Below, piece by piece: positions 11,871 to 24,308 of a DNA stretch of 32,000 bases; positions within the stretch are counted from its first letter, which is position 1; each line of letters starts with the position of its first letter. The translations under genes and the position numbers were made by a program. Source of the DNA: Candidatus Jordarchaeales archaeon (GTDB lineage Archaea; Asgardarchaeota; Jordiarchaeia; Jordiarchaeales; Freyrarchaeaceae); assembly GCA_038858525.1 (NCBI GenBank), contig JAWCFL010000006.1:30001-62000 (forward strand), written 5' to 3'. A model generated the notes under the pieces. It had not been told where the DNA came from and ran no database searches. It saw only the letters and a list, made by a program, of their open reading frames with translations.

Positions 11871-12817
11871 TCAATCTGGCTGGTGCTCGGCGGGCTCTAT
11901 CGGTGTTTTCGTGGGTTTTTCACATCCCCTCTTGGTTACCAGAACAGGAATCTTGGTTACCAGAACAGGAATTTCCAGCCTTAATCCTCCCACTCCAGGC
12001 TTATTTATCTGGAGGTAAAGTTCTTCAACCATTCCTTCTCTAAACTCATAGCTCGTCCAAGGCTCAAAGATAGTTATCGGCGGATACCACTCATGTCCGA
12101 CTATTCCTATTCCGTGGCCGAAGACTGGTGGCGTATGTGGCGCATACTCCGTCTTATTGAGCTTCTCCATGATTTTTTTCGCGACCTCGCCGACAGTTAC
12201 CCCCGGCGCAACGTTGTCTATTAAAATATAGGAAAGCTCGACGAACGTTTCAATCATCTTCCTCTGTTCGTTGTCTGCCTTCTCCATGACGACGTTGTAT
12301 GCGAGGTCAGAATAGTAGAGTTCATATGTAGAGTGCAACTACCATTACTATTTCTCCTTCTCTGATAACCTTATTTGATGGAGGGGTGCAGCCGCACCTC
12401 GAATACCCACCCCTATAACCTGACGCTACCTCGTCCCCTCCCGTTATCGGCCAATTCCACATCGAGCCGAGTTCTCTCATCACCTTCTCTCCCGCTCCAA
12501 GGACGCTGCCTCGGTTACTCCTACTCTCAGAGCCCTCAAGGCAGCCTTTATCCCCTCATCAGCTATGCTGGCAGCTTTCCTCATCCTCTCTATTTCAGCT
12601 GGCTCCTTGATCACCACAGCCTCATTCATAACCTTTGAAGCGTTAACAAAGGTGGCGTCAGGAAGCTTCTCCTTCAGCATTGTGTACTCTGCTTGATTTA
12701 TCACGCCTTCAATGAGACGCGGCGTCACCTCCGCTTCTATACCTATAACTGCTTTTTCAAGTCCCAGTTCCTTAATTCTGCTAGCAACCTGTTCAGGCCA
12801 ATAATAACCGTTGTCGG
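11871..12817 (-). pseudogene. Second M24 peptidase, pseudogene: 5'-truncated by IS607, with two frameshifts
   Basis: Three frames join to ...SDNGYYWPEQVASRIKELGLEK...IKEPAEIERMRKAA...VGVTE[fs ~12505]VLGAGEKVMRELGS...EIVMV[fs ~12340]LHSTYELYYSDLA...GHGIG..GHE...; the N-terminus is not found beyond the IS. Confidence 0.8.
11931..11972. repeat. Perfect 21-bp tandem duplication (IPVLVTK x2) in the peptidase pseudogene
   Basis: CTTGGTTACCAGAACAGGAAT at 11931-11951 and 11952-11972. Confidence 0.95.
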
Positions 12818-12910
12818 ATAGTTAATTTTTTATAACTATCCGTTCCACCTCGGCTAAAGCCTCATGGGTGGCTTTCGCCGCCAACGGTAAAGGACGGCAC
12901 ATGGAGAGTT
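12816..12910 (-). ncRNA. Putative TnpB reRNA (omegaRNA) scaffold overlapping the tnpB 3' end
   Basis: ATGTGCCG..CCGTT..CGGCGAAAGCC..CCCATGA (12902-12862), shared with IS607 #2, followed by a 10-bp perfect inverted repeat (12815-12824 / 12833-12842). TnpB reRNAs are known to overlap the tnpB 3' end and the right end. Confidence 0.6.
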
Positions 12911-13997
12911 TTCCAGCTATGTTCCAAGCGGCGACCAAGTGTCTATCTGCTTGGAAGCCGCACCGCCTGCATTTGAAGACGTGCCCATTCGGCTTACTAA
13001 TTTCGCCACACATCGATGTCCTAGAGGTGTTTTCAGGCTTAACGGTTTCAGGCTTAAAGCCATGCTCCATCCCCTTATAGGAGATGTAGAACTGGATTCT
13101 TCTGAATGGTATGCTGTGGAGCCTCCTATTCATCACCCCACCATACCGAATCCTCTCCCTTATGTGGGTGAGCTCCTCCATTACAGGCTTAACGTTTTCC
13201 TCGGCAACCACACCAGCTACAATCTTCGCCGCCCTATGAAGTACGTCGTTCACCCTCCGCCTCTCCCTCCCAGAATACTTCGATAACAGCTCAGCTTTTG
13301 TCTCCCCCGAGGTCTTACCCTGAATGCTCCTCCTCTTCCTGAAGTACCTGCCTCTAATGTGTTTCGCCTCACTTATATCTATCTTGATGAACCTGACCTT
13401 ACCCGGCTTCACAACAGCCAAGTCTATACTACACTCGTTAACATCGATGCCCAGCACGCCTTCGGACTTTCTCTCCTCAACCGTCCTCCTAAAAGTAACA
13501 TGAAGATAGTATTCGTTATTAAATTTTACAAGCCTTGAGCCTTTAACCTGCCAACCCATGAACTTCATCGAATGCTCATGAACCCTGAACGGAATCGCGA
13601 TGTGTCCTTTGTGCGTAGCCAGCCTTACGCATCCCCAACTGAACCAGAACAGGTGGGCGTCGTCCAAAAGAATGGTGTTTAGTTTCTCAATTCTTGGAGG
13701 GTTAATTTCCCCCCTCTTCCTAGAGAGCCTCCTGTAGGACTTGAATATGCTTAGAGCTTGTGTTATAGCCGTATAAATGTAATGGGATGGGTGGTTCGGA
13801 TACTTCGTCCTCAGCTCCTTATAAATTGCTTCATGAAGCCTCCTACGTGAGGTCACATTTAGATTCATAGCCCTATCTAGGCATGCTTTAACCATTTCGG
13901 AATAGCTCTTGAAGAGATCCTCGAGAACGATTGCTTGTTCATCGTTGGGCTGGAGCTTAAACTTGCAGGTCTCATTCAGCAATAAGCTGCCTGACAC
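12822..13997 (-). CDS. tnpB: TnpB (IS607-associated RuvC-family RNA-guided nuclease), probably catalytically impaired
   Basis: GIDVN (RuvC-I), MEEL (RuvC-II), C-terminal CRRCG..ADRHLVAAWNI; open ORF of 391 aa. Confidence 0.9.
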   Translation of the reverse strand: MSGSLLLNETCKFKLQPNDEQAIVLEDLFKSYSEMVKACLDRAMNLNVTSRRRLHEAIYKELRTKYPNHPSHYIYTAITQALSIFKSYRRLSRKRGEINPPRIEKLNTILLDDAHLFWFSWGCVRLATHKGHIAIPFRVHEHSMKFMGWQVKGSRLVKFNNEYYLHVTFRRTVEERKSEGVLGIDVNECSIDLAVVKPGKVRFIKIDISEAKHIRGRYFRKRRSIQGKTSGETKAELLSKYSGRERRRVNDVLHRAAKIVAGVVAEENVKPVMEELTHIRERIRYGGVMNRRLHSIPFRRIQFYISYKGMEHGFKPETVKPENTSRTSMCGEISKPNGHVFKCRRCGFQADRHLVAAWNIAGKLSMCRPLPLAAKATHEALAEVERIVIKN

Positions 13998-18186: not shown

Positions 18187-18802
18187 GTGCCTGAGAAGCT
18201 CTACACTAATGGTGAGGTTGCGAGGACTTTCGGGGCTTCCTATGTCGCTGTTAAGAAGTGGGCTTATTCTGGTAAGGTTAGGCTTATTAAGACGCCTGGC
18301 GGGAAGTATAGGTTTCCCGAGAGCGAGGTAAAGCGGCTTCTTGGAGGGCGGACTCCGAAGGGAAGGGCTGTGATTTACGACAGAGTGGGTGCAGCTGACC
18401 AGTGGGAGGATTTGGAGAGACAGAAGCAAAGGCTCATTAGGTATGCCAAGAGTAGCGGCTACAGGATATAGTGGTTCTTGAGGACATAGCTTCCGGGTTA
18501 AACGAAGAATAGGAAGAGCTTGATGAGGCTTTTTGAAGTGGTTTCACAGAAACAAGTGGAGGTCGTCTTCATAACATAGGGATAGGCTTACAAGGTTCGG
18601 CTTCAAGTATTTAGAGGCATTCTTTAATTCTCATGGCTGTAGAATAGAGTGCTTAGATGCTGAAGAAGTTAAGGAGCCACAACAAGAGCTTATAGATCTA
18701 ATAGCCATAGTTACGAGCTTTGCTGGGAGAATCTATGGAGCGAGAAGCAATAAGAAGCGGAGGGTTGTGGAGGCTGTTGAGCAGACGATTAGAAACAATT
18801 AA
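18187..18802 (+). pseudogene. tnpA: IS607 TnpA pseudogene #2
   Basis: VKKWAYSGK...TPGGKYRFPESEV, AVIYDRVG (catalytic Ser lost), DLERQ, then shifted EDIASGLNE, RDRLTRFGFKYL and DLIAIVTSFAGRIYGARS; at least three frame breaks. Confidence 0.88.
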
Positions 18803-18975
18803 ACTAGCGGCGAGCTTCAAGCTGAATGGTTTTGTGCCAGACCGAGTTATTCCAAGCCTACAGGCAGATATTAAGCGAGCTCTTAGACTATGCCTGCGAT
18901 AGGGGAGTCTCAAGCTTTAAGCGCTTAAAGTCCGAGAAGTATTGTGACTTAAGGGCGAGGTACCCGAGCTTGCCT

Positions 18976-19221
18976 ATATCAGCAGTTTCGTGGTATATAG
19001 GTTTAAATAGAGGTTGATTACTTTGTTCTTAATGATGTCTACTCTAAAACCTGCCCAGTCTGTTCAGGAAGCATGGCTTCCTATCCGGGCAGGATATTAA
19101 ACCTTCAGATGCGGGGAGAAGGGTTCCCCCAAAGAGCCCTCAATGAGTTAATCGAGGGGGAAGGGTTAAGTAGGAATGAAGGTAACAATTCACTATGTAT
19201 TCCTACTTAACTCAGAACCCT
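18976..19221 (+). mobile_element. Non-autonomous mini-element #1 (promoter + tnpB-tail-derived structured RNA), inserted in tnpB #2
   Basis: Removing it rejoins the codons CCT(P) and TCA(S). CCT occurs at 18973-18975 and 19219-19221. It carries a relic frame YSKTCPVC...LNLQMRGEGFPQRALNE and several hairpins, and is related to 23881..24154. Confidence 0.8.
19002..19011 (+). promoter_or_regulatory. TATA box of mini-element #1
   Basis: TTTAAATAGA; the identical 10-mer sits at the equivalent position of mini-element #2. Confidence 0.6.
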
Positions 19222-20104
19222 TCACACTACATTTATACTGCATGCCCGATGGCATGCTTAATATACAAATCCTTCAGGAAGCTGAAAGGGAGGAATAAAG
19301 TTAGGTTAGGTCTGAAGCCGCTATTCAGGAAAGACGTTATAATGCTCGACGACCACCTATTCAGCATGAACCTCGATAAATGGGAAGCTCCCGTTGCAAC
19401 GGAAGCTGGGAGAATAGTGTTCAGAATCCTTCATGGAACATGTCATGAGAAGTTCAGGGGCATGAAGGTTGGGCAAGCATGGCTCGTCAGAAGGCGCGAT
19501 GGCCATTATTTGAAGGTTGTCTTCAGCAAGACCGTAGAGGTTGCTGAACCTAATGGGAAAAAATTGGCTATAGACGTAAATGAAGCAGCGTAGCCTACGG
19601 CACGGAGAACAAGATAGGCGTCCTTAAGACTGGCGAGAAAGCCATAAGGACGGCATACTTCCTGAAGATGCGTAGACTCCAATCCAAACTGAGGCTCAAC
19701 GAGAAGCCGATACTTGCGAAGTATAGGGGTAGAGAGACGAGGAGGGTGGAGGCAATCCACCATAAAATCGCAAACAGTCTCATCGAGGAGGCTAAGAGAC
19801 AGGGCTGCACAACAAAATAGTCCTCGAAGACCTCAAGCACATCAGAAGACGCATAAGAAAATCTAAAGCTCTTAACGGCAGATTGAATAGGTGGGGCTTT
19901 CAGAAAACTCCAGCACATCATAGAATACAAGGCTAGCTTAATAGATTAAGCGTATTTTATGTTAAAGCTGGGAGCACATCAAGTCTATGCCCAAAATGCA
20001 GGGGCAGGCTAAGCCCAAGCGGGTATAGGCTGATGAAGCGCCCAAGATGCGAACTGGAGGAGGACAGAGATATAGTAGCCGTGAAGAACCTCCTCCAGAG
20101 AATC

Positions 20105-20165
20105 CAGATAGATGTGCCGGCTTCACCCGTTCACGGCGAAAGCCCTCCCATGAAAGGAGGAAAGA
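20105..20165 (+). ncRNA. Putative reRNA scaffold of IS607 #2
   Basis: ATGTGCCGGCTTCACCCGTTCACGGCGAAAGCCCTCCCATGA (20112-20153) aligns with the motif at 12902-12862. Confidence 0.55.
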
Positions 20166-20353: not shown

Positions 20354-21412
20354 CTAATATATTTCTTCTTCACCTTTTTTTCCCTCCCCGGCCATTACCT
20401 TGACCTTCTCTTCCTTGACCTTCTCTTCCTTGACCTTCTCTTCCTTGACCTTCTCTTCCTTGACCTTCTCTTCCTTGACCTTCTCTTCCTTGACCTTCTC
20501 TTCCTTCCCGATTTTCTTTCTCAGCTTCTCATCCAGTATTTTTAGTACCTCTATGGCATACAGGCTTCTGCCGCAGTAAGGGCACTCGATGACGTTGCCG
20601 CTTTCAGGAAGCTTTAGTTTTCCTCCACAATGCGGGCATGCAATCTCCTCAATTATTAATCCTCTGGTTTTTAGCAGCAAGCGTATATGTTCGTAGCTCT
20701 CTTTTTCCTCAAAAAACACGCCGATTTCTGAAGCAAGCTGATCAAGACGCTCATCGAAATCTTTCCTGAGTAACTCCACTTTCTCACCCTGAGCTTTCAC
20801 TATGTTCGGCCACTCCGCTTTAAGCTTCCTGTATTTATATTCAACATTGTCTAAATTCGAACGCAGTTCGTCATTAAGCTTATCTACGGCCTTTTTTATC
20901 TCTCTTCCTTCCTTCTTCAACATTTTTATTTCCTTACGAGCTGTGGGACTTATCAGTGGAGACAACACATAAAGAATGTGGGCACCGTATAACGCTAACC
21001 CAAATAACAGACCAGGCAATCCATAGCTATAAATAAGTATAACAGTAACAAGGAAAATTGAGGTATGCAAGCAGCACACAAAGAGCTTTCTAAACCTATC
21101 CTTTGCTTGATTCACGTACATCATTAACGCGTCTTCTAACTCGTGAAGCTTATAAGTTAAAGCCTCTATTTCCGGCGTATACTTATTTCGTAATTCGTCG
21201 CATTCTTTTACTTTCGCGTAATCTAAGCCTCGCACCATTAACTCATACTTTCTGCTTTCATCATTAAGGACACGTAAATCCTCGGCCAGCTTCCTTAACT
21301 TGCCTCTTAGCTCAGGCGCAAGCTCCGTGTACTCGAAACCGTACCCCAACTTCGACTCAAGCATCTTTTTTATTTTTCTCTCGTTCTCCCTAACCCGCTC
21401 ATCATAATACAC
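20354..21412 (-). CDS. Hypothetical membrane protein: coiled coil, TM hairpin, zinc ribbon, (KEEKV)7 tail
   Basis: Heptad-rich N-terminal half; hydrophobic LFVCCLHTSIFLVTVILIYSYGLPGLLFGLALYGAHILYVL; CPHCGG...CPYCG. Confidence 0.8.
   Translation of the reverse strand: MYYDERVRENERKIKKMLESKLGYGFEYTELAPELRGKLRKLAEDLRVLNDESRKYELMVRGLDYAKVKECDELRNKYTPEIEALTYKLHELEDALMMYVNQAKDRFRKLFVCCLHTSIFLVTVILIYSYGLPGLLFGLALYGAHILYVLSPLISPTARKEIKMLKKEGREIKKAVDKLNDELRSNLDNVEYKYRKLKAEWPNIVKAQGEKVELLRKDFDERLDQLASEIGVFFEEKESYEHIRLLLKTRGLIIEEIACPHCGGKLKLPESGNVIECPYCGRSLYAIEVLKILDEKLRKKIGKEEKVKEEKVKEEKVKEEKVKEEKVKEEKVKEEKVKVMAGEGKKGEEEIY
20398..20506. repeat. 15-bp perfect tandem repeat, 7 copies plus 4 nt
   Basis: CCTTGACCTTCTCTT x7, encoding KEEKV on the - strand. 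Confidence 0.97.
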
Positions 21413-21931: not shown

Positions 21932-23515
21932 GTGGAGGAGAACATGAAGAGAGCGGCATGGAGAACTTACATGGCAGTGTTGCTAGTAGGAGTGCTGGCG
22001 CTCACATTGGTAGCAATGCAAATATCAACGCCAGCACAAGCACAAACACAACGAACGATACAAAAGGCTCAAATGACATGGGCAAAAACGTATGGAGGAA
22101 CGTATGGCGACTCCGCTTTTCGTGTGGCTGTTGATGGTCAGGGGAACATCATAGTGGTAGGCGAAACATGGTCCTTTGGTGCTGGTGGTAGTGACGTTTG
22201 GGTCTTGAAGCTTGACCCTAACGGGGACCCAACATGGCAGAAGGCGTATGGAGGAACGTATGGCGACTCCGCTTTTCGTGTGGCTGTTGATGGTCAGGGG
22301 AACATCATAGTGGTAGGCGAAACATGGTCCTTTGGTGCTGGTGGTAGTGACGTTTGGGTCTTGAAGCTGAACGCCTCAGGTAACGTCATCTGGCAGAAAG
22401 GATACGGAGGAGAGAGCAAAGATTACGCTTGGGGTGTTGCTGTTGATTCTCAGGGAAATATAATAGTAGCGGGAGGAACTGAATCCTTTGGTGCTGGTGG
22501 TAGTGACGTTTGGGTCTTGAAGCTGGACCCTAACGGGGAACCAACATGGCAGAAGACATATGGGGGAGCGAGCAACGAGTGTGCTCTTGATGTTGCCTTT
22601 GATGTTCAAGGAAACATTATAGTGTCAGGGTACACTTACTCCTTTGGTGCTGGTGGCAGTGACGTTTGGGTCTTGAAGCTGGACCCTAACGGGGAACCAA
22701 CATGGCAGAAGACGTATGGAGGAATAAACGACGACTATGCTTCTGGCGTTACTGTTGATGCTCAGGGGAGCATAATAGTAGCGGGAGGCACAAACTCCTC
22801 TAGAGCTGGGGGATGGAACGTTTGGGTTTTGAAGCTTAACAGCTCAGGAGACACCATATGGCAGAAAACGTATGGGGAAGCGAAGACTGACGTTGCCTAT
22901 GATGTTACTGTCAACGCCCAAGGAAACATTATAGTGTCAGGGTACACTTACTCCTTTGGTGCTGGTGGCAGTGACGTTTGGGTCTTGAAGCTGGACCCTA
23001 ACGGGGAACCAACATGGCAGAAGACGTACGGAGGAACTTATGAGGACTGTGCTATGGGAGTTGCCGCCGATAATGAAGGTATAATTGTGGCTGGGTTTAC
23101 GTCATCCTTTGGTGCTGGGCTTCGAGACCTCTGGGTTTTGCGTATAAGTTCGAATGGTGAAATTTACAATTCAATATCCGAATTCACCATAAAAAATACT
23201 AGCGTGGCGCCTACAACAACAGCGGCTTCCCCCTCACCTACTAACGCTGCAATTTTATCGACGAACGCGAACTTGAGCGATACGCAAGCAATAATAACAA
23301 ATACCAACGCGGCAATAAACACGCAGGCACCGCCTTCCCCATCCTTTTCACCACCTATTGAGGAGCAGTTTTTGCTTCTGCTTCTAGTCCTCGGGTTGTA
23401 TGACTCGGTGGAGAATGCATCTCGAAGTAGTGTGGTTTCCATTGGCTTTTTCATAATTCTTTTTGGCGACATCAGTTTGTACGTTTTTCTTTATCGAAGG
23501 TGGAGACTTGCGTGA
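21932..23515 (+). CDS. Cell-surface protein with seven 52-aa repeats (predicted 7-bladed beta-propeller) and a C-terminal membrane anchor
   Basis: Signal peptide; WQKTYGG...GNIIV.G.T.SFGAGGSDVWVLKLDPNG repeats; Thr/Asn/Ala-rich linker; hydrophobic tail ending YRRWRLA. Start may be ATG 21944. Confidence 0.88.
   Translation: MEENMKRAAWRTYMAVLLVGVLALTLVAMQISTPAQAQTQRTIQKAQMTWAKTYGGTYGDSAFRVAVDGQGNIIVVGETWSFGAGGSDVWVLKLDPNGDPTWQKAYGGTYGDSAFRVAVDGQGNIIVVGETWSFGAGGSDVWVLKLNASGNVIWQKGYGGESKDYAWGVAVDSQGNIIVAGGTESFGAGGSDVWVLKLDPNGEPTWQKTYGGASNECALDVAFDVQGNIIVSGYTYSFGAGGSDVWVLKLDPNGEPTWQKTYGGINDDYASGVTVDAQGSIIVAGGTNSSRAGGWNVWVLKLNSSGDTIWQKTYGEAKTDVAYDVTVNAQGNIIVSGYTYSFGAGGSDVWVLKLDPNGEPTWQKTYGGTYEDCAMGVAADNEGIIVAGFTSSFGAGLRDLWVLRISSNGEIYNSISEFTIKNTSVAPTTTAASPSPTNAAILSTNANLSDTQAIITNTNAAINTQAPPSPSFSPPIEEQFLLLLLVLGLYDSVENASRSSVVSIGFFIILFGDISLYVFLYRRWRLA
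22079..23165 (+). repeat. 156-bp intragenic repeat x7
   Basis: Trp codons at 22079, 22235, 22391, 22547, 22703, 22859 and 23015, an exact 156-bp spacing. Confidence 0.95.
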
Positions 23516-23880: not shown

Positions 23881-24154
23881 AGGATTCTGAACTGCGTAGT
23901 CTTTGGTAGACTTGTGTAGCTCTTGGTTTTCATCGAGCCCGTTCTGGGCTCACATCGCTCTCTAACCCTGTCGAGTCGAACCCGCCCCATACATCCACGC
24001 CAAGCCCTTTCGAGCCTGAGGTCATCTGTATGGGGAAAGTCCCCCCATCTGAAGGTGGCATCATCCGTAGGAAGCCATGCTTCCAGAGCAGAGCCCGGCT
24101 CCGGAAAGGTTAATGAGCAAGTCTATTTAAATCTATCTTGAAACTGTTTTTTGA
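23881..24154 (-). mobile_element. Non-autonomous mini-element #2 (ORF-less structured RNA cassette related to mini-element #1)
   Basis: On the - strand: CCT | TCAAAAAA CAGTTTC .. TTTAAATAGA .. GGAAGCATGGCTTCCTA (24084-24068) .. ACCTTCAGATG (24056-24046) .. TCAGAATCCT. The flanking CCT copies are AGG on + at 24155-24157 and 23881-23883. Confidence 0.75.
24122..24131 (-). promoter_or_regulatory. TATA box of mini-element #2
   Basis: TTTAAATAGA on the - strand, directly upstream of the structured region. Confidence 0.6.
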
Positions 24155-24308
24155 AGGCGCTTCGCCGCCGTTTTTGGCATTGTAAATTTCCGGCGTGCCG
24201 CCCTTATCGTTGGCGGTGAAAACCCCTCGGGAGCTTTAATCGTGGAAGATGAGAAAGGTAGAATCTGTTGACCCCACGAAGGTGGAATCATCGTTGAGGA
24301 GATAGTGA

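What the first reader, a model, noticed from the sequence alone, without database searches (positions are those of the whole stretch)
19040..19221. Mini-element #1 is a tnpB tail trimmed to RNA structure, with two possible pseudoknots
Seen: the relic frame YSKTCPVCSGSMASYPGRI-LNLQMRG... lacks the second Cys pair and the DRD motif expected between these blocks. Retained pairings: CCTGCCC/GGGCAGG enclosing GGAAGC-ATG-GCTTCC; a 13-bp stem GTTAAGTAGGAAT/ATTCCTACTTAAC whose loop TGAAGGT (19177-19183) complements ACCTTCA (19101-19107); and AGGGTTC complementing the terminal GAACCCT. In mini #2, GGGTTC can pair with the terminal GAATCC through a G-U wobble. Established: TnpB reRNAs end in a pseudoknot next to the guide.
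Basis: partly seen in the sequence, partly recalled or inferred. Interest (0 to 1): 0.6.

Follow-up and report, generated by a model that had tools for sequence, protein, structure and literature searches.

The report
Gene-less IS607 mini-transposon keeping guide RNA
This is a 246-base, protein-less leftover of an archaeal IS607-type jumping gene that kept only its promoter-bearing left end and the folded guide-RNA (omega RNA) part of its lost TnpB nuclease gene; one of the two proposed pseudoknots is real and is the standard one, the other is a chance match, and such guide-only mini-elements are already known.

Summary
The stretch is the 3' tail of a 246-bp non-autonomous element (window 18975-19220) inserted precisely inside another, decayed IS607 tnpB gene. 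It has a left end with an archaeal TATA box, fused to the last ~180 nt of a tnpB gene. A 51-nt in-frame deletion removed the second CxxC pair and the DRD motif.

Across 41 homologous tails from hot-spring archaea, covariation supports the CCUGCCC/GGGCAGG + GGAAGC/GCUUCC hairpin, a CCCUC/GAGGG stem and the long GUUAAG... stem. It also supports the GGGUUC/GAACCC pairing. It is therefore the canonical nexus-loop/3'-end pseudoknot of TnpB omega RNAs. A sister family keeps it as CCGUUG/CAACGG.

The other pseudoknot (ACCUUCA/UGAAGGU) is private to this copy and is broken without compensation in most homologues. The seventh pair, A-T19221, is flank.

The family is IS607-type (YGCC target, CC core, MerR-HTH ORF, no Y1 transposase), not IS200/IS605. 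The linker deletion is a one-off: 0 versus 33 metagenome loci.

This scan had already reached the same reading for mini #2. Known kind, new member; low-to-moderate interest.

The parts
18971..18974 (+). Target / predicted TAM, TGCC (consensus YGCC). CC 18973-18974 is one copy of the 2-nt crossover core.
   Evidence: 23 of 24 left junctions of family members listed (24 once L071, which the motif scan missed, is counted) read GCC just before the element (one reads GCT), preceded mostly by T or C. The host reading frame shows these bases belong to the host gene.
18975..19040 (+). Left end (LE) of the mini-element. It holds the CAGCAGTTTC box, the archaeal TATA box TTTAAATA at 19002-19009, and the relic start ATGATGTCT of the lost MerR-HTH ORF at 19032-19040.
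   Evidence: 90-93% identical to the LE of a full-length copy at G000:C14. The LE alignment of ~25 elements keeps the TATA box. The small ORF is HTH_17/MerR by Pfam.
19050..19093 (+). SL0: 5' hairpin, outer stem 19050-19056/19087-19093 and inner stem 19067-19072/19076-19081. It overlaps the first CxxC codons of the relic.
   Evidence: outer helix 95% paired with 7 of 9 pairs changed on both sides; inner helix 95.5% paired with 4 of 6. This copy has one A.C mismatch relative to the CCCAG/CUGGG type.
19094..19112 (+). Remnant of the linker (site of the 51-nt deletion, about 19097/19098) plus the highly conserved single-stranded box AACCUUCAGAUGC.
   Evidence: Alignment A1 columns 50-119. RNAalifold finds no covarying structure in the linker.
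19113..19130 (+). Nexus hairpin GGGG (19113-19116) / CCCC (19127-19130). Its loop carries the pseudoknot 5' strand GGGUUC (19121-19126).
   Evidence: stem 92% paired and nearly invariant. In the GG-core family it reads GCCG/CGGC.
19137..19158 (+). SL1: CCCUC / GAGGG.
   Evidence: 92% paired, 4 of 5 pairs changed on both sides.
19163..19213 (+).
   Evidence: 89% paired, 11 of 14 pairs changed on both sides; present in both the MFE and centroid folds.
19215..19220 (+). Right end of the element and pseudoknot 3' strand GAACCC. The last CC is the crossover core.
   Evidence: All 41 tails end here, then diverge. Pairing with the nexus loop is shown.
19221..19240 (+). Predicted guide: the flank read through from the element, which is host tnpB sequence.
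   Evidence: Inference from the omega-RNA architecture. No second matching site exists in the assembly.
18736..20119 (+). Host: a decayed IS607-family tnpB pseudogene interrupted by the mini-element. Its decayed serine-recombinase gene lies upstream at about 18367-18576.
   Evidence: Removing 18975-19220 restores ...RARYPSL-PSHYIYTA..., colinear with the paralogue at 12822-13997.

Best explanation
Shown: window 18975-19220 is a 246-bp, protein-less internal-deletion derivative of an IS607-family element of the 'MerR-HTH ORF + tnpB' type, found in a Jordarchaeia-like Asgard archaeon. It is inserted without target duplication at a YGCC site, with a CC core on both sides, inside the tnpB gene of a different, decayed IS607 element. 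It keeps the left end with an archaeal TATA box and the last ~180 nt of tnpB. In this family that tail encodes the omega (re)RNA scaffold: a 5' hairpin (SL0), a nexus hairpin, SL1 and SL2. An H-type pseudoknot joins the nexus loop (GGGUUC) to the last six bases of the element (GAACCC). Inferred: transcription from the LE promoter starts near the deletion junction and reads through the right end. This would give an omega RNA whose guide is the right flank. A TnpB of the same family encoded elsewhere would load that RNA and cut empty YGCC + flank sites, favouring retention or homing, while a serine recombinase supplied in trans moves the element. My estimates: about 90% that the identity and fold are right, and about 45% that this particular single-copy element is still expressed and used. 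The second pseudoknot (ACCUUCA/UGAAGGU) is a chance complementarity.
For: The tail is 94-97% identical to full-length copies and the LE 90-93%. Covariation over 41 tails supports every helix. The pseudoknot is kept in a sister family with different letters: CCGUUG/CAACGG, with nexus GCCG/CGGC. The layout of three stem-loops plus a nexus-loop/3'-end pseudoknot matches what Zedaveinyte et al. describe as universal for IS605 and IS607 omega RNAs. The genome has no Y1 transposase match but 10 resolvase matches. The HTH ORF is MerR-type. The insertion is precise. YGCC is present at the left junctions and a TATA box in the LEs. In a same-genus genome, two copies of a ~302-bp mini of the same family are 98.7% identical in unrelated flanks, so such minis do transpose. 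Stand-alone omega RNAs acting in trans are documented.
Against: The element is single-copy, with no identical sibling and no second target site. There are no RNA data. The only complete cognate tnpB in the assembly (C24) has two frameshifts; another copy (C17) is cut by a contig end, so an intact partner is unproven. SL0 and SL1 each carry one mismatch in this copy. No full serine recombinase is linked to this sub-family, so the mobilising enzyme is not identified. The G.U (86) versus A.C (56) counts in helices do not by themselves fix the folded strand.
Confidence: 0.75

Rival explanations
1. Inert relic: a full-length element inserted here and then decayed in place by two unrelated deletions. 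The RNA folds survive only because the deletions are recent, and nothing is transcribed or used.
For: The element is single-copy. The neighbouring host element and the C24 parent are also decaying. The same tail occurs in metagenomes with many different truncation points, including tails without any left end and a derivative lacking SL0. The linker-deleted form is not found elsewhere, 0 versus 33.
Against: Both deletions spare every helix. The 51-nt one fits inside the 58-nt unstructured linker, about 8 of 179 possible placements. The large deletion puts the scaffold directly behind the LE TATA box. Related minis with the same layout have transposed.
Confidence: 0.4
2. The SL2 loop really pairs with ACCUUCA, forming a second pseudoknot that is specific to the mini and compensates for the lost linker.
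For: Seven contiguous Watson-Crick pairs exist in this copy. The ACCUUCA box is conserved at synonymous sites in homologues.
Against: In homologues the loop reads GAAAGU, GAAAAU or CCAAAAC. Core pairs are unpaired in 17-28 of 41 and the helix is only 66% paired. The chance expectation is 6%. U19177 is already used by SL2.
Confidence: 0.05
3. The hairpins are single-stranded DNA signals for a Y1 (IS200/IS605) transposase, making this a classical PATE rather than an RNA-structured element.
For: TnpB is most often linked with IS200/IS605. PATEs are defined by palindromic ends.
Against: There is no Y1_Tnp match in a 92.7%-complete genome. The element has a CC core at both junctions and a MerR-HTH ORF typical of IS607. 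The structured region spans 175 nt and matches the omega-RNA plan. The left end has no comparable hairpin.
Confidence: 0.03

Closest known systems
TnpB omega RNA (reRNA) of IS607/IS605 elements, as described by Zedaveinyte et al. 2023 (bioRxiv 10.1101/2023.11.20.567912)
   Same: It is encoded at the 3' end of tnpB and runs to the last base of the right end. It has three consecutive stem-loops. The loop of the first (nexus) pairs with the scaffold's 3' end next to the guide.
   Different: There is an extra conserved 5' hairpin (SL0) over the first CxxC codons. The whole scaffold lies inside the ORF, whose stop is 11 nt from the end. No Rfam model matches, including at relaxed threshold. Here the tnpB gene itself is gone.
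Stand-alone, mobilised omega RNAs (Altae-Tran et al. 2021, as summarised in PMC10691335) and omega-RNA-bearing PATE-like elements (Meers et al. 2023, PMC10055086)
   Same: Both are protein-less elements bounded by transposon ends that keep the guide-RNA scaffold and must use TnpB and transposase in trans.
   Different: The described cases are mainly IS200/IS605 elements moved by a Y1 transposase. This one has IS607-type ends (YGCC target, CC core), an archaeal promoter in the LE, and a host in the Asgard archaea.
Mini #2 of the same window (24155-23882, minus strand)
   Same: It has the same plan: an LE with a TATA box, the GGAAGC/GCUUCC hairpin, then a tnpB tail ending in a hexamer that can pair with an internal GGGUUC.
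   Different: Its 3' part derives from another tnpB family (relatives at G000:C42 and G002:C1). Its nexus 3' strand is broken. It scores below the threshold of model R1.

Membership tests
TnpB omega RNA (reRNA) | Encoded at the 3' end of tnpB and ending at the transposon right boundary | tested here: met
   The tail aligns to 40 tnpB 3' ends. Similarity stops after GAACCC in all of them.
TnpB omega RNA (reRNA) | Three stem-loops plus a pseudoknot between the nexus loop and the scaffold 3' end | tested here: met
   helices are 89-97% paired with compensatory changes. The pseudoknot is kept as CCGUUG/CAACGG in the GG-core family.
TnpB omega RNA (reRNA) | Guide is the variable flank 3' of the right end, with a TAM 5' of the left end | tested here: met
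   Right flanks are unrelated among copies. Left junctions read YGCC. This is sequence-level evidence only.
TnpB omega RNA (reRNA) | Transcribed, bound by TnpB, and directs DNA cleavage | not testable with these tools
   No expression or biochemical data. A TATA box at 19002-19009 is the only indication.
IS607-family non-autonomous (MITE-like) element | Both ends match a full-length IS607-type element, with no coding capacity | tested here: met
   LE matches C14 at 90-93% and the tail matches C24 and G002:C1 at 94-97%. No ORF of 80 aa or more lies within it.
IS607-family non-autonomous (MITE-like) element | No target duplication, with the same dinucleotide core at both junctions | tested here: met
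   The junctions read TTG[CC]TATAT...GAAC[CC]TTCAC. The host frame is restored by removing 246 nt.
IS607-family non-autonomous (MITE-like) element | Cognate serine recombinase available | tested here: inconclusive
   The genome has 10 Resolvase-domain matches. This sub-family carries only the MerR-HTH part, and no recombinase was tied to these ends.
IS607-family non-autonomous (MITE-like) element | Multiple dispersed copies | tested here: not met
   Mini #1 is unique in the genome. A related mini in a same-genus genome has two 98.7%-identical copies.
IS200/IS605 PATE | Mobilised by a Y1 (HUH) transposase through subterminal single-stranded-DNA hairpins | tested here: not met
   No PF01797 match in the genome, which is 92.7% complete. 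The junctions are IS607-type.
Curated Rfam RNA families (any omega-RNA-related family that Rfam 15 holds) | Match to a curated covariance model | tested here: not met
   No hit at gathering score in the window. Only two chance-level hits at E up to 10 in 18900-19300.

The most novel reading that the evidence does not exclude
The 51-nt in-frame linker deletion may be selected streamlining. If so, mini #1 would be a naturally minimised, self-promoted omega-RNA cassette that works in trans. SL0 is the hairpin whose pairing appears to dictate amino-acid choice next to the first CxxC of the TnpB zinc finger, and it recurs in three tnpB families. On this reading SL0 would be a fourth obligatory module of archaeal IS607 omega RNAs. 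Because the mini sits in, and would be guided to, a conserved site of a rival IS607 family's tnpB gene, it could also be an instance of transposon-against-transposon targeting.
Probability: 0.12. Interest if true: 0.55.

Novelty: new member of a known kind. Interest (0 to 1): 0.3.

Why it matters
It gives a clean archaeal (Asgard, hot-spring) example of a guide-RNA-only IS607 derivative. It also provides a covariation-backed secondary structure for an omega-RNA family that no Rfam model matched here. That structure includes a pseudoknot whose 3' strand contains the recombinase crossover dinucleotide. The natural linker deletion suggests which part of the ~230-nt scaffold may be dispensable, which could help design compact guides for thermophilic TnpB editors. 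It does not change the current picture of TnpB biology.

Tried and rejected
1. ACCUUCA/UGAAGGU pseudoknot: rejected on homologue counts and chance expectation.
2. The seventh pseudoknot pair with T19221: rejected, because it is a flank base and is unpaired in 24 of 41.
3. Rfam at gathering and at E up to 10: nothing relevant.
4. Plasmid collection search with the element: no match.
5. Recurrence of the linker-deleted form in JGI metagenomes: 0 loci, against 33 loci with full spacing. The trimming is therefore a private event.
6. Search for an empty target site matching the predicted guide: the best other sites have 4 mismatches and no GCC.
7. Strand test by G.U versus A.C counts: 86 versus 56, not decisive.
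8. IS200/IS605 or PATE classification: rejected, because no Y1 transposase was found and the junctions are IS607-type.
9. Model R1 did not recover mini #2 at E up to 0.01. Mini #2 derives from another family and its nexus is decayed.
10. Pseudoknot-aware energy folding was not available. The pseudoknot rests on covariation and on the nested alternative that RNAalifold itself chose.

Full report
OBSERVATION

The relic frame reads as quoted.

Compared with the closest full-length copy in the same genome (G000:C24, minus strand), the stretch lacks 51 nt, which is 17 codons in frame. Those codons encode the second CxxC pair and the DRD motif.

The region is much more self-complementary than chance. 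It has 14 complementary 7-mer pairs against a mean of 0.8 in shuffles. Its MFE z-score is -3.3.

WHAT THE ELEMENT IS

The finding covers only the right two-thirds of a 246-bp element, window 18975-19220.

- **Left part (18975-19040).** It matches, at 90-93%, the left end of a full-length element at G000:C14. That element starts with a ~65-aa MerR/HTH_17 ORF followed by tnpB. The match ends at the ORF's first three codons (ATGATGTCT).
- **Junction.** Those codons are joined directly to the tnpB tail.
- **Promoter.** The left end carries the archaeal TATA box TTTAAATA (19002-19009). It lies about 25 nt upstream of the junction and is conserved in about 25 family members.

The element sits inside the tnpB pseudogene of a different, decayed IS607 element. 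Removing 18975-19220 restores ...RARYPSL-PSHYIYTA..., which is colinear with the intact paralogue at 12822-13997.

There is no target duplication, and CC occurs at both junctions. Of 24 left junctions of the family, 23 read GCC immediately before the element, usually preceded by T or C.

The genome has no Y1 transposase match but has 10 resolvase-domain matches. One of these is the decayed gene just upstream, at about 18367-18576.

The family is therefore IS607-type, not IS200/IS605. The predicted TAM is YGCC.

The same-genus genome G001 is identical to records titled 'Candidatus Jordarchaeia archaeon isolate QC4'. The host is therefore probably a Jordarchaeia-like Asgard archaeon.

THE RNA STRUCTURE

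I collected homologous tnpB tails from two sources. One was the genus. The other was 58 loci in hot-spring archaeal MAGs of several phyla, with 56-83% protein identity for most. I aligned 41 of these tails as alignment A1.

| Helix | Window position | Cells paired | Pairs changed on both sides |
|---|---|---|---|
| SL0 outer stem | CCUGCCC/GGGCAGG region | 95% | 7 of 9 |
| SL0 inner stem | GGAAGC/GCUUCC | 95.5% | 4 of 6 |
| SL1 | CCCUC/GAGGG | 92% | 4 of 5 |
| SL2 | 19163-19213 | 89% | 11 of 14 |

GGGUUC (19121-19126) lies in the loop of the nexus hairpin and pairs with GAACCC (19215-19220). This pairing holds in 39-40 of 41 sequences, and two of its pairs change on both sides. Sub-family B reads GGGGUU/AACCCC, and L081 reads GGGGUUU/AAACCCC.

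RNAalifold picked this long-range helix on its own.

A covariance model of the core (R1) also finds the scaffolds of other tnpB families in the genome. In the GG-core family (window 12808-12911 minus, plus C3, C10, C29, C39, C42, C54), the loop reads CCGUUG and the terminus CAACGG. The nexus stem reads GCCG/CGGC. Three of the six pseudoknot pairs are swapped on both sides.

This layout has three stem-loops, with the loop of the first pairing to the scaffold's 3' end next to the guide. It is what Zedaveinyte et al. describe as universal for IS605 and IS607 omega RNAs.

WHAT FAILS

- **The second pseudoknot (ACCUUCA 19101-19107 with UGAAGGU 19177-19183).** It is only 66% paired in A1. Its core pairs are unpaired in 17-28 of 41 sequences without compensation. 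It arises from a single A-to-G change in this copy. A 7-mer match between that loop and the rest appears in 6% of shuffles.
- **The seventh pair of the terminal pseudoknot.** It uses T19221, which is flank, and is unpaired in 24 of 41.

IS IT 'TRIMMED TO RNA STRUCTURE'?

Points in favour:

- The 51-nt deletion falls almost exactly in the 58-nt linker, which shows no covarying structure. That placement would occur in roughly 8 of 179 positions by chance.
- The large deletion brings the scaffold right behind the LE promoter.
- Other independent deletion derivatives keep LE, SL0 and scaffold. These are a ~302-bp mini family in genome G002, L107 in a Brockarchaeota MAG, and mini #2.
- In that G002 family, two copies are 98.7% identical in unrelated flanks (L047, L145), and a third copy is 77% identical (L044).

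Points against:

- No locus in the JGI metagenome collection has the shortened spacing, against 33 with full spacing.
- One derivative (L161) keeps the HTH ORF but lacks SL0 and the 5' nexus strand.
- Metagenome copies show many other truncation points, including tails with no left end.
- My samples were found through the tail, so its retention is partly an ascertainment effect.

MECHANISM (INFERRED)

The LE promoter would drive a transcript through the scaffold into the right flank. That would give an omega RNA whose guide matches 19221 to about 19240.

A family TnpB encoded elsewhere would use it against YGCC-flanked empty sites. A serine recombinase acting in trans would move the element.

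In this assembly the complete cognate tnpB (C24) has two frameshifts. Another copy (C17) is cut by a contig end. No second target site exists. Present-day activity is therefore uncertain; I put it at about 45%.

COMPARISON AND NOVELTY

Stand-alone mobilised omega RNAs that work in trans are already published. So are PATE-like elements that encode omega RNAs.

This is a new member of that kind, in an IS607 and archaeal setting. No Rfam model matches it.

Earlier notes of this scan reached the same reading for mini #2. They also proposed that the crossover core covaries with the loop. I checked the latter here and it holds.

Noticed in passing
window 19050-19093; A1 columns 6-49; G000 copies of the GG-core family; L126: The SL0 hairpin overlaps the first CxxC of the TnpB zinc finger. 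The residue after Pro and the residue before Gly-Arg change together (PL..GG, PL..EG, PV..LG, VL..GR), so that the RNA stem stays paired. A comparable TGCCC/GGGCA stem occurs in two other tnpB families. RNA structure seems to constrain the protein sequence here.
   Followed up: partly
L111:1606-1834 (Bathyarchaeia MAG JAWAZE010000001.1): The inner part of SL0 is inverted (reverse-complemented) between the outer stem arms. This hairpin flip keeps the fold. The copy is a truncated tnpB tail.
   Followed up: no
L047 and L145 (G002:C3), L044 (G002:C2): This is a ~302-bp protein-less mini family (LE plus about 240 nt of tnpB tail) in a same-genus genome. Two copies are 98.7% identical, with homology confined to the element and YGCC at the left junction, which indicates recent transposition of a mini.
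   Followed up: yes
L051 (G000:C14), L039, L067-L104 upstream regions: This tnpB family is always preceded by a ~65-aa MerR/HTH_17 ORF only, the DNA-binding part of an IS607 TnpA without the serine-recombinase domain. Which enzyme moves the family is open.
   Followed up: partly
loci L067-L124: The same element family, at 70-83% TnpB identity, occurs in MAGs labelled Bathyarchaeia, Nitrososphaeria, Brockarchaeota, Archaeoglobi, Jordarchaeia, Methanomethylicaceae and others from hot springs. This points to wide horizontal spread.
   Followed up: no
window 19195-19593 (+): A 132-aa ORF starts at an ATG inside SL2 of the mini-element and reads into the remainder of the host tnpB pseudogene. It is probably meaningless.
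   Followed up: no
window 12808-12911 (-): This is the omega-RNA scaffold of the intact 391-aa TnpB element (GG-core family). The loop CCGUUG pairs with the terminal CAACGG, so the pseudoknot 3' strand contains the crossover dinucleotide, GG here versus CC in mini #1.
   Followed up: yes
window 23882-24155 (-), mini #2: This is a 274-bp LE + tail element. Its 3' part derives from a second tnpB family (relatives G000:C42:7667-7800 and G002:C1:241849-241992). The nexus 3' strand is broken (GACUC in place of ACCC), so it looks decayed.
   Followed up: partly
window 20368-20547 and 22076-23155: Two tandem-repeat arrays lie inside ORFs. One has about 10 copies of a 15-nt unit, in the ORF at 20354-21412 (minus). 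The other has 6-7 copies of a 156-nt unit, in the 527-aa ORF at 21932-23515.
   Followed up: no
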